In this document: positions 1,135-37,814 of the stretch, piece after piece
Layout: every line of letters starts with the position of its first letter
Position numbering within the stretch: position 1 is the first letter of the stretch
Source: a virus
DNA: 64,000 bases
Reading direction: 5' to 3' (one strand)
IMG/VR virus record: IMGVR_UViG_3300036785_000488
Location: 1-64,000 of that record
The notes under the pieces: generated by a model
The model's database searches: none
The model's input: only the letters and a program-made list of their open reading frames with translations
Told to the model about the DNA's origin: nothing
Made by a program: the position numbers and the translations under genes

Positions 1135-3792
1135 GTGGGCGTATACGGCATTGACGTATACAACCAAACGCACTTCGGGCGCGACCCCAGCCTGGTTAGG
1201 CCCGACTTTTCGGTGGCTCCTTTTGAGGCCATGGCCCTCGACTACTCCACCTTGCACCTGACGTGGCAGCAACCGCACTCCACAGTCATCAGTGGACAGC
1301 CCGACTGCACCTTCCTTCGGCTGATCCGCAACACCCACAACCTGTCCCAGGATGAGGACGACGGCATGTATCTGTGGGGCAACAACACGACCACACCGAC
1401 GTACTCGGATTTCGTGCAACGCACAGCGAGTTTCACCGACAGCAAACTGGGTGGGGGCTTCCACTACTACACGATGTGGGGCTGGTCCCAGAGCGAAGGC
1501 ATCTGGGTCCGCTGCTCTGATCTGATCGCCCTGGTACCACTCAACTGGGGCTACGGCTTCCAGCTCTACAACCGTCTCCCCATGGCCTACCGGGACGCCG
1601 ATGTCGTGCTCGTGGATCCGTACAACCCGTGGCCGGTGGACAGTCCTCGACCACCCCTGCAGCGGTACCTGAGCCTCCTGGGCTTCCAGATGGATTTCAT
1701 CCGCACCGAGCTGGAGTCCCTCACGAGCGTCATGGACGCCATGAACTGCTCTGGGGCGCTCTTGCCCCTCCTGGCTCAGGAGCTGGGCCTGACCAACGAG
1801 CCAGCCATCGGCATGCAGCAGGAACGCACGCTGGTCCAGAACGCCATCCATCTCTACAAGCTCAAGGGCAGCCCACGGGGGATCTCAGAGTTCGCTTCGG
1901 TCCTGACGAGCTATCCCATGGCGACGCTGACGCACCACGGCTACAACCTCCTGCTCTCCCGCGACTCCAGCGTCGCTGAGACCAGCGTCGGTTCATGGCA
2001 GACATGGCCCCCGCCGGTCACGAACTTCCCACCGCCGTCACCCCCCAACGCAACCGGTGTCACCGTGACCCGGATCCCGAACCTGTTGGCCGCGTCGCCG
2101 CCTGCGACCAACCCGGTCTCAGAAGGGCCTGGACTAGGTCCGTATCCAGGTGGGCTGCCGGGGAACCTGATCCCGCCCTACAACAACACCGGCATGTCCA
2201 TCAATGCCAGCGGTGCCGGAGACCGCTGGATCACCACGGGGCGCATTCCCATCACCGATTTCATGTCCTCGTCGTACGGTCCCGGTTACATCACCTGGAA
2301 GATCCAGATCTGGTCCTCGGTGGCACGACAGGTCAAGTTGTCGGTCTGGGGCGACGTCGGGAGCGGCACGCCGGTCTCGATCATCCCCGAGACCACCTTC
2401 ACCGAGACCGCCGGTCACTGGACGATCATGACGGTCACCGCTGCGATCAACCCGTATCCGAACGGTCCCACTCAGCAAGCGGCGTACTACTTCGTCCTGC
2501 CGGTCATCCATATCGTCGGAGCCATCCCCACCGACTCTCACTACGTGACGCTGATGGGAATCTGGCCGTGCACGCCGGGAGACATCGGTATCAACACGCC
2601 GGTCTACGACTACCCGCGCGACGTAAAGATCACCCTCAGCCCTCAGAACGCCAATCTGCTGACCAACACGCTGACGAACTTCATGTACGGCTTCGATGGA
2701 CTCAGTCCCGCCGTCGACCCGACCCAGTCGTCCACGAACTTCACCTGTGGTCTCACCATCCACTATGTGAGCTATGAGGATCCACCTGGGTCCACCGTCA
2801 ATGGTGCCGGGTACCTTCAGGTGGCGACGACCAATCCCGGAGCCACGGTGTGGTTCGGCATCTCCAACTCGTTCACCCAGCCACTACCGACTCAGCCACT
2901 GGGGTGGTTCTCCAGCCCAGCTACGACCTGGCCTCCGAGTGGTGATGCCGGTGACTGGTTCCCCAACGAGGTGATGACAGCCCAGGCGGCGAACTGGTTC
3001 GACCCGGTCATGGGCTGGTTTTTTGAGTCCCCTTTCTTCGGAACATCGACGTTGGTCAACATGGTGGCTACTTCGTCAATGGGAGTGAACAGCGCACCGG
3101 CACCACCACCAACCACCGACTTGTACTTCACTCAAGGCACACCCGTCCCCCAGGGCAACTGGTTCCCTGTCGCCACCCAACCACCGCTGAACGGAAACCT
3201 CGCGCCCTTCACGGTTCCGGCGAACCAGCCGTTCAACTTCAGCGTCTACGCCGACTACCTCTCAGTCGTGGACCCCTCCAACGCCGTCATGCAGATGGGC
3301 TTCCGGTGGTATTACCCCGACGGCACCTGGCAGGAGATCTCTACCCAGTACGTCCTGACCAACACGCTGACCCGGTACTCGATCCCACCCGACGTCTCCC
3401 TGGGATTCCCGCCTAACGAGCCGTACACCGGGATCCAGCCGACGACGATGTACCCCTTCGTCCGCTTCCCCTACGCCCAGTCGTCACTTTTCGGACTGAA
3501 CTCAGCCATGCTGTCGCCGGGAGTGACTCTGACGCCCTACTTCGACAGCACCATGTTCCCTGGGAACCATGACTACGTCGAAGACTCCCACGGCGGGAGC
3601 TACTACTACCGACAACGATCACCTCGGACGCTGCGCCTGGAGTCAGTGCTCTATAAATGGATCCCCATGGGAGCCAGTCACACCGAGATTTTTGGAGCTG
3701 GCGGGGCGCTCACCCCGCTCGACCCGACAATGTGGACCCACCCGGCCATGGCCTTCATCGGAAACTCCGGCCTGACCGCCACGGCGTCGTAG
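1135..3792 (+). CDS. Baseplate wedge/tail protein (P2 gpI-like domain plus beta-rich C-terminus)
   Basis: LLPLLAQELGL...AIHLYKLKGSPRGI is a gpI-like motif; 885 aa; FN3-like N-terminus. Confidence 0.75.
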   Translation: MGVYGIDVYNQTHFGRDPSLVRPDFSVAPFEAMALDYSTLHLTWQQPHSTVISGQPDCTFLRLIRNTHNLSQDEDDGMYLWGNNTTTPTYSDFVQRTASFTDSKLGGGFHYYTMWGWSQSEGIWVRCSDLIALVPLNWGYGFQLYNRLPMAYRDADVVLVDPYNPWPVDSPRPPLQRYLSLLGFQMDFIRTELESLTSVMDAMNCSGALLPLLAQELGLTNEPAIGMQQERTLVQNAIHLYKLKGSPRGISEFASVLTSYPMATLTHHGYNLLLSRDSSVAETSVGSWQTWPPPVTNFPPPSPPNATGVTVTRIPNLLAASPPATNPVSEGPGLGPYPGGLPGNLIPPYNNTGMSINASGAGDRWITTGRIPITDFMSSSYGPGYITWKIQIWSSVARQVKLSVWGDVGSGTPVSIIPETTFTETAGHWTIMTVTAAINPYPNGPTQQAAYYFVLPVIHIVGAIPTDSHYVTLMGIWPCTPGDIGINTPVYDYPRDVKITLSPQNANLLTNTLTNFMYGFDGLSPAVDPTQSSTNFTCGLTIHYVSYEDPPGSTVNGAGYLQVATTNPGATVWFGISNSFTQPLPTQPLGWFSSPATTWPPSGDAGDWFPNEVMTAQAANWFDPVMGWFFESPFFGTSTLVNMVATSSMGVNSAPAPPPTTDLYFTQGTPVPQGNWFPVATQPPLNGNLAPFTVPANQPFNFSVYADYLSVVDPSNAVMQMGFRWYYPDGTWQEISTQYVLTNTLTRYSIPPDVSLGFPPNEPYTGIQPTTMYPFVRFPYAQSSLFGLNSAMLSPGVTLTPYFDSTMFPGNHDYVEDSHGGSYYYRQRSPRTLRLESVLYKWIPMGASHTEIFGAGGALTPLDPTMWTHPAMAFIGNSGLTATAS

Positions 3793-28240: not shown

Positions 28241-31090
28241 TCAACCTCCTGTGGCTTTGAAGTGTGCGGCGAGTTCGTTGATCGACAGCGCACGGTTGTA
28301 GATAGCGACGTGCGCCAGGTCTCCGGTCATCCACTGCGTCGTGCGCGCGCCGCGGCCCATGCGCCAGTACAAGGCTGCTTGAGCTTGACGCGCTGTTAGC
28401 TGAGTAGTGGTTCTCAGTGCACCATCTCGGTAGATGTAGAGATTCGTACCGTCAAAGATGAAGGCACCGTGGTGCCAGTTACCGTCAGCGGTGCTTGCAA
28501 CATCTTGAGGAGCGTTCTGCGGCCCGCCCCAACAGATTCCGTTCAACAAGCCAGTGGTCGGCCATGAACTCAGCGATGCGTTATACGTCCCCGTTGGAGT
28601 ACCGGTGGTCGAACTGTTCAACTCCACCATAACGCCGCCTGTCGAAGTCGATTGAATGCGGTACCACAACTCGATGGTGAACGGCGTGCCGTAGACGACT
28701 GTCTCTGCGACTGTCTCGACCAGTGAACCACCCGTACCGTCGAAGTGCGCCGATCCAGGACTAGCTCCCCAGGGATCAGCACCACCGAAGATGACGACGC
28801 CGTACAACTGAGCCGTCTTGCTTGCACCCGAGGAGTCAGCAGCAGTGGTCGAGTGGAGTGCTTCGTTGAGCTTCCAGTACGCAGCAGGGGCTGACTGTAG
28901 GACGGCGGCACTGTACGAAGTGTTGAGGTTCGTCACCTGCATGCCCGCCTTGACGTTCATGGCAATCGAGTTCGTCGGGACCCCTCTGCCGGTGTTGTAG
29001 TGCTGTGCGATCTCAGTCGGAGTCAGAGGGCGGTTGTAGACAGCCATGTGCGACAGACTGCCGAGAAGTGACCCCCACTGACGGTTTGAGTACCCGAGTC
29101 GCCAGTAGCCCATAGGCATCGTGAACGGTTGCTGACCGGCGAGAGCCTGCTGCGCCCGCAGTGATCCGTTCCGATAGATCTGTCCTGTTGTCGTCGCAGC
29201 GTTGTACACGTACACCAGGTGGTACCACTGATTGTCCGAGGAGACTTCACCCGCCCCAGCGATCCCTGAACCGGTGGAACCGAAGATGTATCCGTAGGAT
29301 CCTCCCGACCACAGACCAGTCGTGGCTGAACGTACAGCGTTATTGCTCGGGTTGTTGGCAGGGCTGGCGACGGTCGGACCTTCGGGGAGGAAGTCCATGA
29401 ACCCGGTACCGATTGTGTTGCTCCTGAACCAACACTCGATGCTGAACGAGTTGGGTATCTGTTCCTGGTAGTTCCTGACGATCTGGTTCGACGCAGCGGC
29501 ACCTGTCCCAGTCACAGCGTCCGTTGTGCTCCAAGGATCGGTTGCGCCAATGGTGAGCGTTGAACCGATGACCGTTGTGCCTCCAGGCGGCTGTGTATTG
29601 AGCCGCCAGTACAGATCGGGGTTCGATGACCGCACGGCGCTGGCGTAGAGCGCAGCGGTTGGGAGTGGGGGAGCAGCGGTGTAGTGGCTGATGATCTCGG
29701 CATACGGGAGCGCCCGACCGTACGCCGCCACGAAGCACAGGTTCCCCATGAACGGGTTCGCCGCTCCCTGACTCACTCCCCGACCGACATGCCAGCAGCC
29801 CTGGAATGGGACAGGCACCGTGGCGTTCGTTGCCGAGGCAAGTACACCGTCGACATAGAACGACCACGTCTGAATACCGTCGTACGTGGCAGCAATGTGA
29901 TGCCAGCCACCGTCACCCGCTGTGGCGGGGCCGATCTGAGGGCCGAGAACGGAAGCACCGCCACCACCTGTTCCAGACGGGGGATTAACGCGGGCGAACG
30001 TGTTCACTCCTACACCCGGTCCCTGGAGAAGGATCGACGGTCCATAACTGGGATTGCTGGTTGGGAATCCGGTGGTGTCCACGTTGAACTCCATCGGTAC
30101 GGATGAGATTGACCCAGTAGTCGCCGGGTTGGTCTGCATCCAGAACTCCATGGTGTATGCGCCACCACGGGGCCAGGGCTGGGTCGGATTCTGGAGAAGG
30201 TGACTGATGTTGGGGGCGGCACCTGTCCCGTTGAAGTACGCCGCACGGTGACCGCCCCACGGGTCCAGGGCAGTACCGAAGGCCACGGTGCCGAACACCT
30301 TGGCGTCAGCCGGTGCGACGTTCAGGGGCCAGAACAACTGGTTCGGGTTCGACGCTTGCACCGCCGCCTGGTAGACCGACCAACCGTCGACCATTGCCAC
30401 AGACAGGCTGGACGTGGCAGCCATGTTGGGACCGTTGGACCACCAGTCGTCCGGTTCGGGATCCAGGATCGACTCACTGACGAGATCGACCTCGGGGAAC
30501 CAGTCGGCCTGGGAGGTCACCACGGTCTCACCGGTCATGATGACTGTGGCCTGCACCAGGTCGTCGGCGGTGACACTCATGTCACCCTCTCCAACGAGAG
30601 TGACGCTCGGCGTGGTGGTGATCGGGATCGTGTCGGGCGTGAGCGTCGTGGTGGCCTGCATGCCGACCTGGACGGCCACATCAGGTGTGAGCGGCGGCGG
30701 GGGCAGGGGCGAAGGCGCGGGGGTGTACACCTCCCCGGTGAACTCAAAGATCCAAGCAGTGTCCCAGGCGTCGGCTGGCCCAGCGACGAGCGGACTCTGG
30801 CCGACCAGTGCGTAAACCGCTTGGAGGCCCTGAGACAGCACAGTATCTGCCGGGGCGTTGGGATCGAAGTTCTGCCGAGACGGCACGTTGAAGAGCACCT
30901 CGGTGCCAGGAACCAGCGGCACCATCTCGACCACCTGACGCTCACCGTCGAGCGGGCCGTCCTGGAGGAGCATCATCACCGGAGTGCCGACCGGGCCGAC
31001 ATGGGCGGCGGCGAAGAGCGTCGAGCTGGCAGCGAGGTTGACCGACACGACATTGAGAGCCGAGGTCGCAGCCAACGTGACCGTGGTCAT
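28241..31090 (-). CDS. Virion-associated protein with three LamG/ConA-like lectin domains
   Basis: Three repeats of Y/FWxLN...TxExW...WHHxxxxYDG...YxDG...VAxYxRAL. Confidence 0.85.
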   Translation of the reverse strand: MTTVTLAATSALNVVSVNLAASSTLFAAAHVGPVGTPVMMLLQDGPLDGERQVVEMVPLVPGTEVLFNVPSRQNFDPNAPADTVLSQGLQAVYALVGQSPLVAGPADAWDTAWIFEFTGEVYTPAPSPLPPPPLTPDVAVQVGMQATTTLTPDTIPITTTPSVTLVGEGDMSVTADDLVQATVIMTGETVVTSQADWFPEVDLVSESILDPEPDDWWSNGPNMAATSSLSVAMVDGWSVYQAAVQASNPNQLFWPLNVAPADAKVFGTVAFGTALDPWGGHRAAYFNGTGAAPNISHLLQNPTQPWPRGGAYTMEFWMQTNPATTGSISSVPMEFNVDTTGFPTSNPSYGPSILLQGPGVGVNTFARVNPPSGTGGGGASVLGPQIGPATAGDGGWHHIAATYDGIQTWSFYVDGVLASATNATVPVPFQGCWHVGRGVSQGAANPFMGNLCFVAAYGRALPYAEIISHYTAAPPLPTAALYASAVRSSNPDLYWRLNTQPPGGTTVIGSTLTIGATDPWSTTDAVTGTGAAASNQIVRNYQEQIPNSFSIECWFRSNTIGTGFMDFLPEGPTVASPANNPSNNAVRSATTGLWSGGSYGYIFGSTGSGIAGAGEVSSDNQWYHLVYVYNAATTTGQIYRNGSLRAQQALAGQQPFTMPMGYWRLGYSNRQWGSLLGSLSHMAVYNRPLTPTEIAQHYNTGRGVPTNSIAMNVKAGMQVTNLNTSYSAAVLQSAPAAYWKLNEALHSTTAADSSGASKTAQLYGVVIFGGADPWGASPGSAHFDGTGGSLVETVAETVVYGTPFTIELWYRIQSTSTGGVMVELNSSTTGTPTGTYNASLSSWPTTGLLNGICWGGPQNAPQDVASTADGNWHHGAFIFDGTNLYIYRDGALRTTTQLTARQAQAALYWRMGRGARTTQWMTGDLAHVAIYNRALSINELAAHFKATGG

Positions 31091-31840: not shown

Positions 31841-33313
31841 TCAGTCCATGGTCCGACGAACCGCATCCTCGGCACGGTTGGGGTCCACTTTTCGGAGGCC
31901 CTCGGCCCGCTCGGCCCCGAAGAGCCGCGCCAGCACGCCCGCCTGGGTGCGTCCCTCGACGGTCACCTTCAAGAAGTCTCGGTTGTCCTGGATCTCCTTG
32001 ACGCTCTGCGTCATCCGCATGAATCGGTCCAATTCGGACGACAGGTTGGCGTCGGGGTAGCCGCCCTGGAGCTGCTCGGAGAAGAAGCCGAAGGCGACCC
32101 GCTGGCCCTGCATCTCCAAGAGGCTGTGCAGAATCGACATCAGTTGATCACGATTCCGTATCTGAATCGGGATCGAGTACTTGCACGACGAGCCAAGTTC
32201 AAAGAGAGGACACACTGCGGCGAGCGAGCACGAGTCGCATTGACGCAGCCCAGCTCCATTCATGACGGCGACGTCGTTGGTGACCTCGACAGTGCCCGTC
32301 CCGTTCGGATTCTCCATGACGGTGGTGTGCGGGCGGAAATCGAACACCGGCAGAGGCCGGATGACGTCGGGCAGGTGCGACCCGTTTGAAGCGGGTTCAG
32401 GAGCTAAGTGATCAACTGCCTGTTCGGGCAGAGGCGCAGTTTCCGGGGGAGTCGGATGTCCATTTGCAGTTGATCCATTACGTCGTTTGAGCAGCTTGGC
32501 GCGTTGCGGCCCCTCCATGGACTGCTCCATTTGCCGCCAGGCCCATACCGTGTAGCGGGCGACCTCGTCGGAGTCGTCGTTGACAATTTTGTCAGCGTCG
32601 AACCCGGCGGCAGTGAAGTGGCTGCGGTGCCGACGGCGGATCTTCTCCTTGTCGTCAGCCGGATACCGGCGCAGCCGGTTCTCATCCCAGATCATGGTTT
32701 CTCCAAAGCGCGTAGGAGAAATCCACGAGGACGAGACGAGCGTCGAGTACAGCCCTCCTGGGGCGTCGTAAGGGTGCGAGAACGACAGCCCATGCAGGTT
32801 GATCTTGGTCCGACGCACGAGGGACGAGAGCACGTTCTGGGTCCGGTCCTCAACCGGCGGGACGCCGAGATTGGGGTGCTTCTCGACCATGGTTCGGAGA
32901 AGAGGCGCGCCCCAGTCCTCGTGCCATACCGGGACGAACTTGTCGTCGGCCACACCCGCCCAGACCTCACGCTGGCGCAGCACCCAGTCCAGACCCAGGC
33001 TCCCGGCGTCGTATTCGGTGAAGAAGGCGATCCTCTCCAGGTTGTCCTGGACGAAGCCCAGGTAGGCCGAGAGGAACTCCTCGTGCTCGGTCTGGCTCCA
33101 GTTCTTGCGCTCGGTCGCAGAGCTGCCCGACATGACGAAGATCTTCTGCTCATCGGGGAAGACGTCAGCTAGTAACCAAGGTTGTTTAGTGATTCGTGGC
33201 TGGAGGTGGAGGTAGTTGACGGCGACGTGCGGCACGCCCTCGGCGGCGAGGAGCTTGCGCCAAGCCGGGGTCTCGGCCCCGGCGAAGTACAACTCAAGAT
33301 GACGCAGGCTCAT
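31841..33313 (-). CDS. Degenerate TGT/DpdA-like TIM-barrel protein with C-terminal Cys cluster
   Basis: IFVMSGS, TEYD, FVPVWH, LHGL, VSSSW; CDSC...CPLF...C. Confidence 0.6.
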   Translation of the reverse strand: MSLRHLELYFAGAETPAWRKLLAAEGVPHVAVNYLHLQPRITKQPWLLADVFPDEQKIFVMSGSSATERKNWSQTEHEEFLSAYLGFVQDNLERIAFFTEYDAGSLGLDWVLRQREVWAGVADDKFVPVWHEDWGAPLLRTMVEKHPNLGVPPVEDRTQNVLSSLVRRTKINLHGLSFSHPYDAPGGLYSTLVSSSWISPTRFGETMIWDENRLRRYPADDKEKIRRRHRSHFTAAGFDADKIVNDDSDEVARYTVWAWRQMEQSMEGPQRAKLLKRRNGSTANGHPTPPETAPLPEQAVDHLAPEPASNGSHLPDVIRPLPVFDFRPHTTVMENPNGTGTVEVTNDVAVMNGAGLRQCDSCSLAAVCPLFELGSSCKYSIPIQIRNRDQLMSILHSLLEMQGQRVAFGFFSEQLQGGYPDANLSSELDRFMRMTQSVKEIQDNRDFLKVTVEGRTQAGVLARLFGAERAEGLRKVDPNRAEDAVRRTMD

Positions 33314-33519
33314 GGCTTCTTCAGACTCTCAGACGCCTGGATGAACGCCTTGGACAGGTAGCGACGGGCGGTCTCCTTGGCTGAGACCCGCATCTCCTCA
33401 CGGGCTGCCCGCACCGCTTCTCGGAGGTCCTTTGCCACCTGGTGGGCCTCCCTGGTGGCCTGCTCTAAGGCAAGCCGCTCTGTGGTGATCGCCATCACTT
33501 CTTCTGGGTCAGGACTCAT
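33310..33519 (-). CDS. Small coiled-coil protein
   Basis: Coupled to its neighbours. Confidence 0.55.
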   Translation of the reverse strand: MSPDPEEVMAITTERLALEQATREAHQVAKDLREAVRAAREEMRVSAKETARRYLSKAFIQASESLKKP

Positions 33520-33970
33520 GGAGCGGATCCCGGTGTACGTCGGCCTTCACTGAAGGACCGTAATAGCCAAATTCATTGAGGTCATCCCCGGCAAAGCGGA
33601 CGTGGTGAGCGGGCACCTGGGCCTTGAGCGTGGGCAGATCCTGCTTCGGATCGTCGGGATGCTTGGCGTGCTCGGCGGCGTACCGGGCACTGAGCGTCAC
33701 CCAGTCCCCGTGGTTAATGTGACCGACGCCCCTGGGGGCGGCTCGGTAGATGGTGGCGGTGTGGTCGGGGTTGCCGCGGGCGGCACGGATCTGGCGGATC
33801 GACTCCTGGGGGTGTGCTGTCCCGGTGAAGTGGTGGGGCTTCTCGTAGACATCGAGGCCATGCATGAAGTTGCCGGGTTCGGTCAGGTCGTGCAGTGGCG
33901 GGCCATCAGAGGTCGGGATGTGCCCGCCCTGGTAGTCCTCAAACTGCTCCCCTAGAGCTTCTCGGCTCAT
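33509..33970 (-). CDS. QF-tag protein 1: ADP-ribosyltransferase-like fold
   Basis: MSREALGEQF; TIYRAAP...GDWVTLSARYAAEH...DLNEFGY. Confidence 0.7.
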   Translation of the reverse strand: MSREALGEQFEDYQGGHIPTSDGPPLHDLTEPGNFMHGLDVYEKPHHFTGTAHPQESIRQIRAARGNPDHTATIYRAAPRGVGHINHGDWVTLSARYAAEHAKHPDDPKQDLPTLKAQVPAHHVRFAGDDLNEFGYYGPSVKADVHRDPLHES

Positions 33971-34311
33971 TCGTAATCCTCAGACCGAGGGCGTCTTCCT
34001 TCAGCCACAAGCGAGAGGCGCGAAGACTTCACAGGATCATGTGTCTTATAGCTCTTCCATCCCTGCTTTTCTGTCTGTGCCAATGCCAGATCCCCCTCCA
34101 CCGTTTCAAAACCAGGATCACGATGAAGTTTCAGTCCTTGCGTGTGGACTTTCCAAACATCTACACCCGTATGGCTTTTGAGCGGCTCCGTCGACATAAA
34201 GACAGCATCCCCCACTCCTTTGCGAAGACCCTGACGTTGAATGCTCTCTCGATTCGTCGGATAAGAGATGTGGTACATGAACTGCTGTGGACTGAGTGCT
34301 TCGTGACTCAT
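33967..34311 (-). CDS. QF-tag protein 2: H-type ART/KptA-like fold
   Basis: MSHEALSPQQF; YHIS..NRESIQRQGL...VFMS...VWKV. Confidence 0.7.
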   Translation of the reverse strand: MSHEALSPQQFMYHISYPTNRESIQRQGLRKGVGDAVFMSTEPLKSHTGVDVWKVHTQGLKLHRDPGFETVEGDLALAQTEKQGWKSYKTHDPVKSSRLSLVAEGRRPRSEDYE

Positions 34312-34688
34312 GCCGGTTCCCAGTCCCCTGCTGTGGCATCGATCCGCAGCCGTTTGGGCAACCGCTCACCCAATGAACGCGCCCAGGCTTCACCCTCCCC
34401 CGTCCGGTCGGACGAATGCCGAGGAGGGCGCACACCACGGGTCTCGGCGGCGATCCCCTGGGCATGACGGTACACAGCGGTGGCGATGCCCTGGCGTCGC
34501 ACCTCTGGGGAGGTCGCGATGTTGCCGATCTCCCCGGTCTTGTGATGCCACATGATCATGCCCACGTTCGTCGCACCGCCGCCACCGTACGCCCGCACCT
34601 CATGATGAGAGCTACCCCCCATCTCCCTGGGCGTGGCCTTCTTGAAGACGTAGTGAAACTGCTCCGGGTTCAGAGCACGGTGGCTCAC
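34308..34688 (-). CDS. QF-tag protein 3: GNAT acetyltransferase
   Basis: MSHRALNPEQF; IATSPEVRRQGIATAVY (acetyl-CoA motif A). Confidence 0.85.
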   Translation of the reverse strand: MSHRALNPEQFHYVFKKATPREMGGSSHHEVRAYGGGGATNVGMIMWHHKTGEIGNIATSPEVRRQGIATAVYRHAQGIAAETRGVRPPRHSSDRTGEGEAWARSLGERLPKRLRIDATAGDWEPA

Positions 34689-34888
34689 ACCGGCTGGCGC
34701 GGTCCCCGTGCCCTGCCGTCAACGAGGTAGAAGGCCCCGATGGCGATGTCGACCAGGAAGCTCAGGAACGCCGCCATGAACCATGTGTACCACCAAGTGC
34801 TCCAAAGCTGGCCGGTGGCCGACGCACTGGCGATGATGCCCAGGACGACGAGCACGATGGCTCCTACAATGAAAAGTCGGAAATACAT
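34685..34888 (-). CDS. Small two-helix membrane protein (no tag)
   Basis: Highly hydrophobic 67 aa; RBS GAAAGGAG. Confidence 0.7.
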   Translation of the reverse strand: MYFRLFIVGAIVLVVLGIIASASATGQLWSTWWYTWFMAAFLSFLVDIAIGAFYLVDGRARGPRQPV

Positions 34889-34900
34889 CCCGGCTCCTTT

Positions 34901-35449
34901 CTATTTCTGCAATCGATGTACGACCGTGCGGTGGTGGCCCTCGGCCAGCCAGCGGGTGCCGCCGTGTTCATAGTGCTCGGGCAGATACGGGATGCCTTCT
35001 GGGTGTTCCTCTACGGGCTGGGCGTAGAGGCTGCCACCGGCAGAGCGTTCCTCTCTCACCCGTCGAGCAGCCGGATGCCCGAAGTCTTCAAAATGCTCGG
35101 GCGGTCCCTCCTCGGCGTAACGGCGCAGCGTCGGCGTGTGCAGGTGGCGCTGCGAGGTCATCACCCGCCCACGGGGATAGCTGAAGTCACTCTCCTGCTG
35201 CTCCTGGTAGCCCTCGGTGGCGATGTGTGGGGCGTCAACACCTCGTTTGGTTTGATGAATATCGGCCCGGTGCATGACGTGCTTGGCGACGCGTCCGGTG
35301 ATCACCTTGGGCACCTCTGATCCTCCGAGGGAGGGATGCAGCCCCATCTCATGCGCCACCGGACCCAGGTGCTCCTTGCCCTCATCGATCTCTGAAATGT
35401 CCTTCATGATGAGGTGGAACTGCTCGGCGTTCAGTGCTCGATGACTCAT
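34901..35449 (-). CDS. QF-tag protein 4: ParB/Srx-like
   Basis: MSHRALNAEQF; TSQRHL...WLAEGHHR. Confidence 0.65.
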   Translation of the reverse strand: MSHRALNAEQFHLIMKDISEIDEGKEHLGPVAHEMGLHPSLGGSEVPKVITGRVAKHVMHRADIHQTKRGVDAPHIATEGYQEQQESDFSYPRGRVMTSQRHLHTPTLRRYAEEGPPEHFEDFGHPAARRVREERSAGGSLYAQPVEEHPEGIPYLPEHYEHGGTRWLAEGHHRTVVHRLQK

Positions 35450-36072
35450 CGCAGATGCGGGTACTCCTTCCGCACATGCTCGGGGATCTGCTCCCCGCGC
35501 TGGTGAGCTTCGGTGACGTAGTCCTCATGCGTCTTGAAACCAGACCGGTGAGGGACGATGGCCGAGATGTGTTCTCGTTCGTCCTCGGGCTTGTATGCCC
35601 CCTCGGCGGCGTTGACGTAGAAGATGCCCCGGCGCATTTTCTGGCCTTTGGCCTTCAACCCTGCCTGCACCGCATTGGCCCGGACATCGGACATCGGCTC
35701 CGTGGAGCTACGGCGAGGCCAATCGGCCATCTCCCCGCGAGGGATTCCTTCTCGGATATTCCAGTCTGTCCCTGGTCCGCGAGAGGGATGAATGCGGGGA
35801 GTGTTCGTCATGGGGGCGGTGATGTGACCGCCGTAGAGTTCGGCAGTCGGGGAGTCTTTGATGCGTTGCTCTCGCGTCTCAGCCACATTGTGACCAGCGA
35901 TGCGCGCCGAAAGAGCATCAACGGCTGCCTCACGGGTCCCCACATGGAAGGGCTGATCCTGGTGGCCGATGATCCCCGTCGGTGTGCCGTGGAACCATGT
36001 ACCGGGCTGCGACTCAAACTCCTGGCGAGTCATCTCATGGAACTGCTGAGGGCTAAGAGCGCGATGACTCAC
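35446..36072 (-). CDS. QF-tag protein 5: ART-like
   Basis: MSHRALSPQQF; WFHGT...FHVGTREAA...YVNAAEG...SAIV. Confidence 0.65.
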   Translation of the reverse strand: MSHRALSPQQFHEMTRQEFESQPGTWFHGTPTGIIGHQDQPFHVGTREAAVDALSARIAGHNVAETREQRIKDSPTAELYGGHITAPMTNTPRIHPSRGPGTDWNIREGIPRGEMADWPRRSSTEPMSDVRANAVQAGLKAKGQKMRRGIFYVNAAEGAYKPEDEREHISAIVPHRSGFKTHEDYVTEAHQRGEQIPEHVRKEYPHLR

Positions 36073-36227
36073 TTGTACCGCTCCGGGTCAAAGAGGGTTT
36101 GCTGCTCCTCGATGGGATGAAGAGGCCCAGCCTTTCTCAGCCATGGGGCTTCTTCGTAGAGATGGTGCTCCTCACAGTAAGGACAATGCTGCCCGAACTG
36201 CTCTGAACTAAGAGCGCGATGACTCAC
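36069..36227 (-). CDS. QF-tag protein 6: 52-aa microprotein (not in ORF track)
   Basis: MSHRALSSEQFGQHCPYCEEHH...EQQTLFDPERYK; its first 20 nt are identical to the start of 35446-36072. Confidence 0.75.
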   Translation of the reverse strand: MSHRALSSEQFGQHCPYCEEHHLYEEAPWLRKAGPLHPIEEQQTLFDPERYK

Positions 36228-36495
36228 GGTGCTTCTTCACGTTGTGACGCTGCATGCGCTGCTCTTGATGACGGCGTGCCTCGGCCTTGATCGGCCTCAG
36301 AGCACGGTTCCCTTCTTCCTTGGAGTAGGCCAACGGAGGGTTATCGGGGTTGAACAGACGGCCCTGTCGGAGGCCCTCGTTCTCCTTCTCCGGTTCAACC
36401 ACCTGAGGGTTGGTTTCACGCATACGTTGCTCAAGCGACGACCCCGGTACCGGCGTGGTGGCGAACTGCTTGGAGAGGACCCAGTGCTGTGTCAC
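36208..36495 (-). CDS. QF-tag protein 7: basic small protein
   Basis: MTQHWVLSKQF; contains QGRLF. Confidence 0.6.
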   Translation of the reverse strand: MTQHWVLSKQFATTPVPGSSLEQRMRETNPQVVEPEKENEGLRQGRLFNPDNPPLAYSKEEGNRALRPIKAEARRHQEQRMQRHNVKKHRESSRS

Positions 36496-36502
36496 TGCGC
36501 CT

Positions 36503-36712
36503 TCACGCCTCTTCTTCTTCCTCACCAGGTTCAGTACCTGAGGGCTGCCGGTGCTCGGCGGTGTAGTCGTGAGAGAAAGCGGGCCGATACACGTTCGACG
36601 TCAGGTTCTGAATGCCACGCACGCGCGCTGCCAGCCCGTCCATGTTCCCCTGACCGATGATGTTCTGCTCGGTGTAGAACTGCTTGTTCGACAATGCTTC
36701 ACTGGCGCTCAT
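36503..36712 (-). CDS. QF-tag protein 8: small protein
   Basis: MSASEALSNKQF; ATGA overlap. Confidence 0.65.
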   Translation of the reverse strand: MSASEALSNKQFYTEQNIIGQGNMDGLAARVRGIQNLTSNVYRPAFSHDYTAEHRQPSGTEPGEEEEEA

Positions 36713-37230
36713 GATGTGTCTGGCTCCATTTCGTTGAGGCGCGGATCTGAGATCTTCAGCTCGCGCTGACGTGTCATCTCCGCATCGATGTCTTCCCAGG
36801 GCTTCGGCAAGCGTTTGCGGTCGGGCCGATATTCCGCCCAGCGATACGTCGGGTTGACGAAAAAAAGACAAGGGAATCCGTTGGCACTGACAGCAAGGAC
36901 AGCCTCGGGATCCGAAGAGACCACCAGGTTCAGATCGTGTCCTGCAGCTCGGAGCTGACCGGCATGTGCCACCAGGAGAGCCGGGTCCGAGTAGTCAGTC
37001 CGCTGAGTGTCCCGATGCAAGAGATCCTCGTAGAAGCCCGGACGGCCCATGCCGTTGATGCGGCACCAGAACTCGACCGAATGCTCGTCCTTCTCGGTGG
37101 TGGAGAAGACGATCTGGTACCCGGAGCGCAGGGCCTTGGCGAGCCTGACGCCCTCGACCACCGGCTGAAAGCCGTGGACAGTGCTGTGTTCGCCCAGGAC
37201 CCCCTCAACGGTGATCAGGGCGGTGCTCAT
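36709..37230 (-). CDS. HAD-fold-like protein, probably degenerate
   Basis: LITVEGVL in place of DxDGVL; VVSSDP. Confidence 0.55.
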   Translation of the reverse strand: MSTALITVEGVLGEHSTVHGFQPVVEGVRLAKALRSGYQIVFSTTEKDEHSVEFWCRINGMGRPGFYEDLLHRDTQRTDYSDPALLVAHAGQLRAAGHDLNLVVSSDPEAVLAVSANGFPCLFFVNPTYRWAEYRPDRKRLPKPWEDIDAEMTRQRELKISDPRLNEMEPDTS

Positions 37231-37486
37231 CAGCTTGAGTACTGGGAAGCCCTGGCTCCCCGGTTCTGCATGTTGTCGGGACCGTAGGGGGCGGGCTGCG
37301 TCGGCTCGTTCTCTCTCAGCTCCCATGCCTCCCTCAGGAGGGACGGCCACTGGCCGGGATCCCGACCGGCCAGGGTGCCGTCGAAAAATGACGACCAGTT
37401 GGTGGCCTTCGGCGTGCGGCCAGCCGCCTTGGTCGTCACGCGCAGCGCCGGAGCTGCGCTAGGGACCGCCGGAGGTCCTGAGCGCC

Positions 37487-37759
37487 TCACTTCACCCTCT
37501 TGACCGTCATGTGGGTGTCCCCGCGCTCGATGGCCCCGGCCACCCGGTGATGGCCGTCACCGACGTAGTACCGGCCCTGGTACGGGTGCACTAGGGGATC
37601 GGTGGAGATGTCACCGGGATCCTGGCGGGCGATATCGGCCACCTTGTCCTGGTTGACGTAATTCTGCGTGGCGACCACTTTGTCCAGGCGCACTTTTATG
37701 CGGGGCATGCGGGGGTTGGGTTTTTCTGCGAACTGCTTGGTCGACAGCGGCACTGACAC
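37487..37759 (-). CDS. QF-tag protein 9: minimal ParB/Srx domain
   Basis: MSVPLSTKQF; ATQ...PLV...YYVGDGHHRVAGA. Confidence 0.8.
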   Translation of the reverse strand: MSVPLSTKQFAEKPNPRMPRIKVRLDKVVATQNYVNQDKVADIARQDPGDISTDPLVHPYQGRYYVGDGHHRVAGAIERGDTHMTVKRVK

Positions 37760-37814
37760 GCCACGAGCTTAGGTGGCTCGGGTTGGCGCACCTGGGCCAC
37801 TTATGCTGGTCCCG

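What the first reader, a model, noticed from the sequence alone, without database searches (positions are those of the whole stretch)
33509..37759. Nine unrelated small proteins share one N-terminal tag (MSHRAL-x3-QF): candidate virion-packaging/injection signal with an effector cargo array
Seen: nine co-oriented genes begin MSREALGEQF, MSHEALSPQQF, MSHRALNPEQF, MSHRALNAEQF, MSHRALSPQQF, MSHRALSSEQF (a 52-aa ORF the track missed), MTQHWVLSKQF, MSASEALSNKQF and MSVPLSTKQF. Similarity stops right after QF. The bodies differ: three ART-like folds, one GNAT, two ParB/Srx-like domains and three microproteins. Tag codons vary synonymously (CAT/CAC, CGC/CGA/CGT, GCT/GCA), which points to selection on the peptide. 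The membrane protein and HAD-like gene inside the array lack the tag. Known: phage T4 loads internal proteins into its head through a ~10-aa N-terminal capsid-targeting sequence, and it injects the ADP-ribosyltransferase Alt. Inference: this is an independent, modular address tag that loads host-modifying enzymes into the virion for delivery with the DNA. I do not know of it being described.
Basis: partly seen in the sequence, partly recalled or inferred. Interest (0 to 1): 0.92.

Follow-up and report, generated by a model that had tools for sequence, protein, structure and literature searches.

The report
Shared N-terminal address tag on phage effectors
A group of uncultured soil phages puts the same 11-residue peptide (MSHRAL-S/N-P-E/Q-QF) on the front of at least 25 unrelated small host-modifying enzymes; it is most likely an address label that loads them into the virus particle, but that has not been shown.

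Summary
Nine co-oriented genes at 33509-37759 (minus strand) start with the tag: five canonical, one a residue short (g1) and three variants. In the 85-kb genome the strong form occurs nowhere else.

Pattern scans of viral and metagenome contigs found 58 non-redundant tagged proteins in about 26 unrelated families, all in relatives of this phage. It is a myovirus with an N4-gp56-type capsid, and Streptomyces phage BRock is its nearest isolate.

- **Position:** the motif is N-terminal in 56 of 56 cases.
- **Selection:** codons at conserved residues follow genome-wide usage, so selection acts on the peptide. Identity falls from 79% in the tag to 9% just after it.
- **Cargo:** ADP-ribosyltransferase-like proteins of several kinds, GNATs, a zincin, JAB-like and ParB/Srx-like proteins. 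This is the repertoire of fused "polyvalent proteins". The g1 body is 46% identical to a module of a 1579-aa polyvalent protein.
- **Gene context in relatives:** tagged cassettes sit in structural operons, directly upstream of portal, inside the tail-fibre operon, or after a minor tail gene.

Virion loading is therefore the best reading (about 0.45) but rests on context only. A resemblance to the scaffold's conserved C-terminal motif is suggestive, not proof. This scan has noted similar tags in other phage lineages.

The parts
37487..37759 (-). g10, 90 aa. First gene of the operon; ParB/Srx-like with a DGHHR motif. Variant tag (V)SVPLSTKQF, with Ser2 encoded by TCA.
   Evidence: Orthologues carry MS[VI]x[LF][SNQ]xxQF.
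37230..37490 (-). Untagged 86-aa gene between g10 and the HAD-like gene. Conserved in relatives.
   Evidence: GC3 0.79.
36709..37230 (-). HAD-like gene, untagged. True start is MSTALITVEGVLGEHS. It is a conserved frame gene at the 5' side of the array.
   Evidence: No family hit.
36503..36712 (-). g9, a 69-aa microprotein with tag MSASEALSNKQF. Its family is conserved in 3 relatives.
36208..36495 (-). g8, about 95 aa, start GTG at 36495. Weakest variant tag, (V)TQHWVLSKQF. No homologue found.
36069..36227 (-). g7, 52 aa, canonical tag. It is the leader remnant of a split gene: g7 plus g6 equals one 310-aa protein in L127/L136. GC3 is low (0.58).
35446..36072 (-). g6, 208 aa, canonical tag. The body has a WFHGT motif. 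The lead to ART-PolyVal is weak.
34901..35449 (-). g5, 182 aa, canonical tag. Its family has 7 members with a C-terminal WLAEGHHRT (ParB/Srx-like) motif. An 18-aa variable insert follows the tag directly.
   Evidence: The AF2 model is of low confidence.
34685..34888 (-). Untagged 67-aa two-helix membrane protein inside the array.
34308..34688 (-). g3, 126-aa GNAT acetyltransferase, canonical tag. It belongs to the largest tagged family (13 members).
   Evidence: (Acetyltransf_1, 27.5 bits against a cut-off of 20.7).
33967..34311 (-). g2, 114 aa, canonical tag. The body has a YH[HI]S motif; an ART-like fold is possible. GC3 is low (0.49).
33509..33970 (-). g1, 153 aa, tag one residue short. The body is a widespread ART-like module of polyvalent proteins.
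33310..33519 (-). Untagged 69-aa helical protein, with a weak DUF7169 match.
31841..33313 (-). DpdA-type DNA transglycosylase (queuine tRNA-ribosyltransferase family). Conserved 3' frame gene of the array.
   Evidence: (phrog_887, 3e-44).
28241..31090 (-). 949-aa protein with three LamG domains, a virion-structural-type protein at the end of the same co-oriented gene string.

Best explanation
The peptide is a clade-specific, strictly N-terminal address tag. After Met removal it probably reads S-H-R-A-L-[S/N]-P-[E/Q]-Q-F. The tag works as a short linear motif: a flexible stretch followed by a helix N-cap that starts the first helix.

The tag is fused through linkers of any length to small, interchangeable effector enzymes. 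These are ADP-ribosyltransferases of several types, GNATs, a zincin peptidase, and JAB-like and ParB/Srx-like proteins. Together they amount to a polyvalent protein taken apart into separate cassettes.

Inferred mechanism: the cassettes are made together with virion proteins. The tag docks each one to a single conserved receptor inside the assembling procapsid (scaffold, capsid inner face or portal). They are then packaged and enter the next host with the DNA, where they modify host or defence components.

Shown: the tag, its modularity, selection at the peptide level, its N-terminal position, the cargo types and the gene contexts.

Inferred: the timing of expression, the receptor, packaging and injection.
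For: 1. Distribution: the tag heads 58 non-redundant proteins in about 26 BLAST families across related contigs.
2. N-terminal position: 56 of 56 motif occurrences, and 19 hits against 0 for the reversed control.
3. Peptide-level selection: His, Arg, Ala, Leu and Phe codons in tags mirror genome-wide usage.
4. The tag is not part of the folds. Linkers vary from 0 to about 40 residues. In the confident g1 model (pLDDT 85) residues 1-10 average 53. Homologues without the tag exist.
5. The cargo matches the polyvalent-protein repertoire. The g1 body is 46% identical to residues 1397-1556 of a 1579-aa protein with ART-PolyVal, NUDIX and ADPrib_exo_Tox domains. It has 2666 HMMER hits, mostly inside proteins of 500-4000 aa. 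Other tagged bodies match Arr-ms, ADPrib_exo_Tox, an HExxH zincin, and GNAT.
6. Structural-operon context in relatives. Tagged cassettes lie directly upstream of portal with a 4-nt overlap (L015, L130). Others lie between two genes of the tail-fibre operon next to the sheath gene (L003, L005, L014/L090, L016). Others lie directly after a minor-tail-protein homologue (L011, L012 and others).
7. The main array ends in a LamG virion-type protein.
8. The start of the array operon shares a TAnnCT-N6/7-GTGTC signature with the start of the tail-fibre operon.
9. [quoted passage not shown] The darB gene also lies next to the portal gene (PMC9024508). Polyvalent proteins are predicted to be encapsidated (PMC5512222).
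10. The scaffold's conserved C-terminal KA[LM]TPEEY is the best match in the phage proteome to the tag core RALSPEQF: BLOSUM score 28 against the next best 21, reached in 37 of 1000 shuffles, and never reached in 168,687 residues of natural background.
Against: - There is no direct evidence of virion association: no isolate, no proteome and no RNA run.
- No prohead protease was seen in the head module (portal, scaffold, capsid gene), so the T4 route of binding to the core and then cleavage has no counterpart. Small uncleaved proteins might leave the capsid with the scaffold.
- The main array sits beside DNA-modification genes (DpdA, a ParB-like gene, a HAD-like gene) rather than head genes. 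Its timing is inferred from only two similar operon starts.
- The scaffold resemblance fails at the two invariant tag positions. Tags always end Q-F, and the 84 of 90 scaffold homologues that carry the motif always end [ED]-Y. A matrix built from tags alone ranks the scaffold site about 23rd.
- The nearest isolate, BRock, has the same head module and DpdA but no tag. The tag is therefore not needed for this kind of capsid.
Confidence: 0.45

Rival explanations
1. The tag docks the enzymes onto a common partner that is not part of the virion. This could be a phage adaptor that joins them into a non-covalent multi-enzyme complex. It could be one shared inhibitor or chaperone that keeps these toxic enzymes silent in the producing cell. 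It could be a host hub such as RNA polymerase, the ribosome or the nucleoid. It could also be the DNA-modification machinery (DpdA and the ParB-like protein) encoded around the main array.
For: Everything that shows a modular docking motif selected as a peptide fits this equally well. The main array is framed by ParB-like, HAD-like and DpdA genes in all relatives. Small untagged conserved proteins (p69, TM67, the 86-aa ORF) lie inside the arrays.
Against: None of the small untagged genes is present in all arrays. Tagged cassettes also sit far from the DpdA module, inside structural operons. BRock has DpdA without tags. There is no resemblance to known clamp-, SSB- or ClpX-binding motifs; this was judged by eye only.
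Confidence: 0.25
2. The tag is an N-terminal stability or modification signal. It would be a degron that limits the lifetime of toxic enzymes, or a site for N-terminal processing such as Met removal followed by acetylation of Ser2, possibly by the tagged GNATs themselves.
For: The tag is strictly N-terminal. Ser2 is conserved even where the stop/start overlap does not force it. GNATs are the largest tagged family. The cargo is plausibly toxic.
Against: Conservation extends over residues 3-11 with invariant L6, Q10 and F11, which is more than known N-degrons or acetylation sites need. Nothing links the tag to a protease. Untagged operon neighbours also begin M-S.
Confidence: 0.12
3. The conserved element acts as nucleic acid. 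It would be a signal for translational coupling or re-initiation, or a short homology used to shuffle cassettes by recombination, and the peptide would be a by-product.
For: Genes are chained by ATGA/GTGA overlaps. g6 and g7 share 20 identical starting bases (GTGAGTCATCGCGCTCTTAG), and together they correspond to one gene in a relative, which points to recombination at tags. Array content and order differ between relatives.
Against: Codon choice at the conserved residues follows genome-wide usage, with 4-6 codons used for Arg, Ala and Leu. Among the five standard tags of the window, 44 codon differences are synonymous and 23 are not. Untagged genes are coupled by the same overlaps. Recombination at tags may occur, but only as a side effect.
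Confidence: 0.04
4. The genes are diverged paralogues of one ancestral protein, and the tag is the only segment that stayed conserved.
For: The genes are tandem, co-oriented and of similar small size.
Against: The bodies belong to different established families: GNAT, Arr-ms, ADPrib_exo_Tox, a zincin and ParB-like. The g1 body has thousands of homologues without the tag. Linker length varies within a family.
Confidence: 0.03

Closest known systems
Capsid-targeting sequence (CTS) of phage T4 internal proteins IPI-III and Alt
   Same: A peptide of about 10 residues at the N-terminus, shared by unrelated proteins including an ADP-ribosyltransferase. In T4 it loads them into the prohead for injection (as reviewed in PMC9024508 and PMC3012670).
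   Different: There is no sequence similarity to MKTYQEFIAE. No T4-type prohead protease or core was seen here, so cleavage is unlikely. The capsid lineage differs (N4-gp56 family, with a separate scaffold). There are far more cargo families (about 26), arranged as swappable cassettes. Packaging has not been shown here.
Phage P1 Dar system: the N-terminal packaging signal of DarB
   Same: An N-terminal signal of 30 residues or fewer is enough to send a reporter into the capsid. The cargo counters host defence. The darB gene lies next to the portal gene, as tagged cassettes do in L015 and L130 (PMC9024508).
   Different: The P1 Dar proteins share no consensus N-terminus (stated in PMC9024508). 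Here a single consensus heads all the cargo.
Polyvalent proteins of phages and conjugative elements (Iyer, Burroughs, Anand, de Souza, Aravind 2017; PMC5512222)
   Same: The effector repertoire is the same: ART, metallopeptidase, ParB and others. The g1 body is a true module of such proteins. The proposed role is the same: proteins delivered with the DNA to act early.
   Different: There the domains are fused in one giant polypeptide. Here each domain is a separate small gene carrying a common tag. No such tag is mentioned in the passages of that paper I read.
MuF-fused polymorphic toxins and SPP1 gp7-type minor head proteins
   Same: Variable toxin or enzyme domains, including ADPrib_exo_Tox, are attached to a constant element that takes them into the head.
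   Different: There the constant element is a folded MuF domain of about 250 residues that binds portal. Here it is an 11-residue peptide, and no MuF match appeared in the family scans of the proteins I submitted.

Membership tests
T4-type capsid-targeting sequence system | A short N-terminal peptide shared by otherwise unrelated proteins | tested here: met
T4-type capsid-targeting sequence system | Sequence related to the T4 CTS and ending in the prohead-protease cleavage motif, with a prohead protease encoded by the phage | tested here: not met
   The consensus MSHRAL[SN]P[EQ]QF does not resemble MKTYQEFIAE. The head module reads portal, scaffold, capsid gene with no protease gene between or beside them, both here and in relatives. 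Not every gene of the genome could be named.
T4-type capsid-targeting sequence system | Tagged proteins are present in the virion and the tag is sufficient for packaging | not testable with these tools
   No isolate and no proteome exist. This needs virion mass spectrometry and a reporter fusion.
Polyvalent proteins (PMC5512222) | Effector domains of the polyvalent repertoire (ART, metallopeptidase, ParB and others) in a phage with portal-terminase packaging | tested here: met
   Portal.
Polyvalent proteins (PMC5512222) | Two to fifteen such domains fused in one polypeptide | tested here: not met
   Each tagged protein has 43-326 residues, and every body that matched a family matched one domain family only.
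MuF polymorphic toxins | An N-terminal MuF (Phage_Mu_F) domain carrying the variable C-terminal domain | tested here: not met
   None of the 30 tagged proteins scanned against Pfam has a MuF match.
ADP-ribosyltransferase fold (body of g1) | ART-like split beta-sheet fold with conserved catalytic-type Arg and Glu | tested here: inconclusive
   The AF2 model has pLDDT 85. The match lists from Foldseek and VIA-align are dominated by ARTs, but with E >= 0.04 and Z <= 5.7. R76 and E133 are invariant in 26 homologues.
GNAT acetyltransferase (body of g3) | Pfam Acetyltransf_1 match above the curated cut-off | tested here: met
   27.5 bits against a cut-off of 20.7.

The most novel reading that the evidence does not exclude
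The tag imitates the scaffold protein's conserved C-terminal motif, KA[LM]TPEEY, which I take to bind the coat protein by analogy with P22. Cargo would then ride into a capsid that has no maturation protease by occupying scaffold-type sites on the coat protein. If so, the injected effector set of a whole phage clade could be read from sequence, and the 11-residue peptide would be a portable loading tag for N4-gp56-type capsids.
Probability: 0.15. Interest if true: 0.85.

Novelty: new variant of a known kind. Interest (0 to 1): 0.66.

Why it matters
If the tag is a loading signal, proteins that a phage injects with its DNA could be predicted from sequence alone in this clade. They are the first weapons against host defences and are usually invisible in genome annotation.

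It would also show a second way to build a polyvalent effector: many small cassettes with one address label, exchanged freely between four hot spots in the genome, instead of one giant fusion protein.

It would be a capsid-targeting system in a lineage without a maturation protease, so the mechanism must differ from that of T4. An 11-residue tag of this kind could be used to load foreign proteins into actinophage capsids.

Even if the partner turns out to be something else, one peptide shared by about 26 enzyme families points to a single unknown hub that is worth finding.

Tried and rejected
- **Close relatives of the array:** megablast of the array against isolated phages gave no match. tblastn of g6 against the same collection gave no match.
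- **Bacterial genomes:** the pattern scan of 185,579 genomes gave only chance hits, such as a 31-codon Bradyrhizobium ORF. There is no prophage and no host clue from this scan.
- **Co-folding:** the capsid protein (27-row alignment) with g7 scored under the mark, so the job gave no verdict. This is neither for nor against binding.
- **AF2 of g5:** low confidence (pLDDT 53), unusable for a fold search.
- **Capsid protein match:** a match of my loose motif inside the major capsid protein (MPVLRFEQF) is internal, about residue 42, and is a conserved capsid segment, not a tag.
- **MSRSEEF:** three stand-alone g1 homologues begin this way. I tested it as a second tag. The scan found the same two proteins repeated across nine contigs and no arrays, so I dropped it.
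- **BRock:** its DpdA and portal neighbourhoods contain no tag.
- **Sequencing runs:** three soil metagenome DNA runs hold the array, one of which may be the source. No RNA holder is listed.
- **Literature:** a search for the string MSHRAL found nothing.
- **Small untagged genes as the receptor:** p69, TM67 and the 86-aa ORF are rejected as a universal receptor because none is present in all arrays.

Full report
**1. What is there.**
The window is the first 64 kb of an 85,071-bp single-contig phage genome with 62% G+C. It comes from a soil metagenome.

The phage has a contractile tail, with sheath and tube genes. Its head module reads portal, scaffold, then a major capsid protein of the N4-gp56 family. 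The nearest isolates are Streptomyces phages BRock, Alone3, LuckySocke, GiJojo and pSt2308, with 58-59% portal identity.

On the minus strand, from 37759 down to 28241, runs one string of co-oriented genes. Most are chained by ATGA or GTGA stop/start overlaps. The order is:
- g10 (ParB/Srx-like)
- an 86-aa ORF
- a HAD-like gene
- g9, g8, g7, g6 and g5
- a 67-aa membrane protein
- g3 (GNAT), g2 and g1
- a 69-aa protein
- a DpdA-type DNA transglycosylase (phrog_887, 3e-44)
- a proline-rich protein
- a 949-aa protein with three LamG domains that matches "virion structural protein" families

**2.
Five are canonical (MSH[RE]AL[SN]x[EQ]QF). g1 is one residue shorter. g9 and g10 are variants that keep the core: a hydrophobic residue, then S or N, two free positions, then Q-F. 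g8 is the weakest.

In the whole genome the strong motif occurs only here and only at ORF starts. Identity among the five standard tags is 79% over residues 1-11 and 9% over the next 30.

**3. The tag defines a clade-wide system.**
A degenerate DNA pattern for S-H-[RS]-A-L-x3-Q-F found true tagged genes in 11 of the 17 IMG/VR stretches matched and in about 20 metagenome contigs. It found none in 185,579 bacterial and archaeal genomes. All true loci are relatives of this phage, sharing capsid, portal, DpdA and tail genes.

Pooled, there are 58 non-redundant tagged proteins of 43-326 residues, falling into about 26 BLAST families. One 9.7-kb contig (L125) carries at least ten tagged genes.

Positions the search did not fix are also conserved: position 7 is S or N in 37 of 38 distinct tags, position 8 is mostly P, and position 9 is mostly E or Q.

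The motif [AV]L[SNG]xxQF occurs 56 times in 280 kb of clade DNA, always at an N-terminus. A pattern that did not specify the start codon or Ser2 hit four places, all of them known N-termini. In five related records there were 19 matches against 0 for the reversed control.

**4. Selection acts on the peptide.**
At the conserved His, Arg, Ala, Leu and Phe positions the tags use synonymous codons in about the proportions of the whole genome. Arg uses six codons, Leu six and Ala four.

The exception is Ser2, which is always AGY. This follows from the ATGA/GTGA overlap with the upstream stop, and untagged neighbours (p69, DpdA, HAD-like) have it too. The specific tag is therefore residues 3-11. Ser2 is nevertheless kept with TCN codons in the g10 family, which heads the operon and overlaps nothing. 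The free N-terminus after Met removal may thus be part of what is recognised.

**5. The tag is a separate module.**
- Within one family the distance from QF to the first conserved body motif varies from 0 to about 40 residues.
- In the Arr-like family the Pfam match begins exactly at residue 11.
- The g1 body has 2666 HMMER relatives, whose matches start at query residues 7-13.
- Phrux gp125 and the polyvalent protein P0002 have the body without the tag.
- In the confident g1 model (pLDDT 85, pTM 0.82) residues 1-10 average pLDDT 53.
- In L127/L136 one 310-aa protein equals g7 plus g6. The window's g7 is therefore a tag-plus-leader remnant, and g6 received a tag of its own. The two tags share their first 20 bases. 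Tags are evidently places where cassettes are cut and joined.

**6. What the cargo is.**
- Above curated cut-offs: GNAT (g3 and relatives), Arr-ms rifampin-type ART (PDB 2hw2, 1e-9) and ADPrib_exo_Tox.
- By motif only: a zincin with HE[LM]GH, and a JAB-like H-N-H-P…S..D.
- Weaker: ParB/Srx-like (g10; the EGHHR tail of g5), DUF7002-like, YunG-like and zinc ribbons.
- The g1 body is an ART-like module. The structural match lists are dominated by ARTs, but with Z no higher than 5.7. It is 46% identical to the C-terminal domain of a 1579-aa protein with ART-PolyVal, NUDIX and ADPrib_exo_Tox domains. Most of its relatives sit inside proteins of 500-4000 residues.

This is the repertoire of the polyvalent proteins described by Iyer et al. 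(PMC5512222). Here it is split into single-domain genes that share a tag.

**7. Where tagged genes sit.**
Mapping all loci onto this genome shows four recurrent insertion sites.
- **Site A:** between the HAD-like gene and DpdA. This is the window's array.
- **Site B:** between two genes of the tail-fibre operon, beside the sheath gene (L003, L005, L014/L090, L016).
- **Site C:** directly upstream of portal with a 4-nt overlap (the zincin in L015; an ART-like gene in L130).
- **Site D:** directly after a homologue of ORF 1135-3792, whose N-terminal third matches minor tail proteins of Streptomyces phages (L011, L012 and others).

Three of the four sites are thus inside virion operons. The start of the array operon and the start of the tail-fibre operon, together with their orthologues, share a TAnnCT box 6-7 nt before GTGTC[AG][AG]TG. 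This hints at common regulation. It rests on two sites per genome, and the bare pattern is expected about 2.6 times by chance.

**8. Mechanism.**
The best reading is a docking peptide that brings each cargo to one conserved receptor during head assembly, so that the enzymes are packaged and enter the next cell with the DNA. It rests on three things:
- the structural-operon contexts;
- the kind of cargo, which is useful at the moment of entry;
- the precedents of the T4 capsid-targeting sequence, P1 DarB (whose gene also adjoins portal) and polyvalent proteins (PMC9024508, PMC5512222).

I found that its C-terminal block is nearly invariant in four relatives. The motif [KR]x[LM][ST]PE[ED]Y is present in 84 of 90 database homologues.

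With BLOSUM62, KALTPEEY is the best match to RALSPEQF in the whole proteome: 28 against the next best 21. That score was reached in 37 of 1000 shuffles and never in 168,687 residues of natural proteins.

Against mimicry, tags always end Q-F and the scaffolds that carry the motif always end [ED]-Y, and a matrix built from tags alone ranks the site about 23rd. Both motifs are helix-cap-helix elements, which may explain part of the likeness. I put mimicry at about 0.15 and virion loading overall at about 0.45.

**9. Rivals.**
- **A non-virion hub.** This could be an adaptor, a shared inhibitor or the DpdA module. It fits the docking evidence equally well and cannot be excluded (0.25).
- **A degron or N-terminal modification signal.** This is possible (0.12).
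- **A signal acting as nucleic acid.** Codon usage contradicts it (0.04).
- **Common descent of the bodies.** The family assignments contradict it (0.03).

**10. Novelty.**
The principle is known from T4 and P1. This scan has also noted comparable shared tags in other phage lineages (e1-370441, e1-5956725, e1-5684659, e1-5340821, e1-6011976).

Several things are new here:
- the sequence of the tag;
- the lineage: an actinophage-like myovirus with an N4-type capsid, a separate scaffold and no protease seen in the head module;
- the breadth of the cargo;
- the direct link to polyvalent-protein modules;
- the four exchange sites.

I found no description of this tag in print.

Noticed in passing
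window 31841-33313 (-): A DpdA-type transglycosylase (queuine tRNA-ribosyltransferase family) lies directly after the array. With the ParB-like and HAD-like genes it forms the conserved frame of the array in all relatives. The phage probably carries 7-deazaguanine-modified DNA. BRock also has DpdA.
   Followed up: partly
window 36069-36227 and 35446-36072 (-); L127:1517-2449: g7 (52 aa) plus g6 (208 aa) correspond to one 310-aa protein in a relative. The gene was split, or fused, at a tag. The two tags share their first 20 bases, and g7 has low GC3 (0.58).
   Followed up: yes
window 37760-37790 (-); genome 69890-69930 (+): The array operon and the tail-fibre operon both start with a TAnnCT box 6-7 nt before GTGTC[AG][AG]TG, preceded by CCACC, and so do their orthologues.
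   Followed up: partly
genome 82229-83026 (-), outside the window (L164:7229-8026): The scaffold protein has a C-terminal helix-cap-helix block with the motif [KR]x[LM][ST]PE[ED]Y, kept in 84 of 90 homologues down to about 41% identity. More distant homologues and BRock have a related ...MxxY/F... form.
   Followed up: yes
genome 82170-81964 and 81726-80932 (-), outside the window: An intact capsid protein from relative L015 aligns to this genome in two pieces separated by about 237 nt. This fits the group I intron noted earlier (e1-6065674). Relatives L003, L015 and L090 lack the insert.
   Followed up: partly
all tagged proteins (window 33509-37759 and loci L002-L136): The cargo bodies are rich in histidine (6.2% against 2.6% in the phage's long ORFs) and in charged residues, and poor in cysteine. 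This is unexplained.
   Followed up: no
window 33967-34311 (-): g2 has a much lower third-position G+C (0.49) than its neighbours (0.70-0.82), which suggests a recently acquired cassette.
   Followed up: no
L125:3007-3147; G002:C1:50040, G003:C1:18461, G004:C1:30837: In L125 a 46-aa microprotein starts MSFQVLSPRQF. The same VLSPRQF-coding sequence recurs at a further location in three large related genomes; I did not check there that it is at an ORF start.
   Followed up: no
window 37230-37490 (-): A conserved untagged 86-aa gene (GC3 0.79) lies between g10 and the HAD-like gene. It is hidden by the long upstream extension of the HAD-like ORF.
   Followed up: partly
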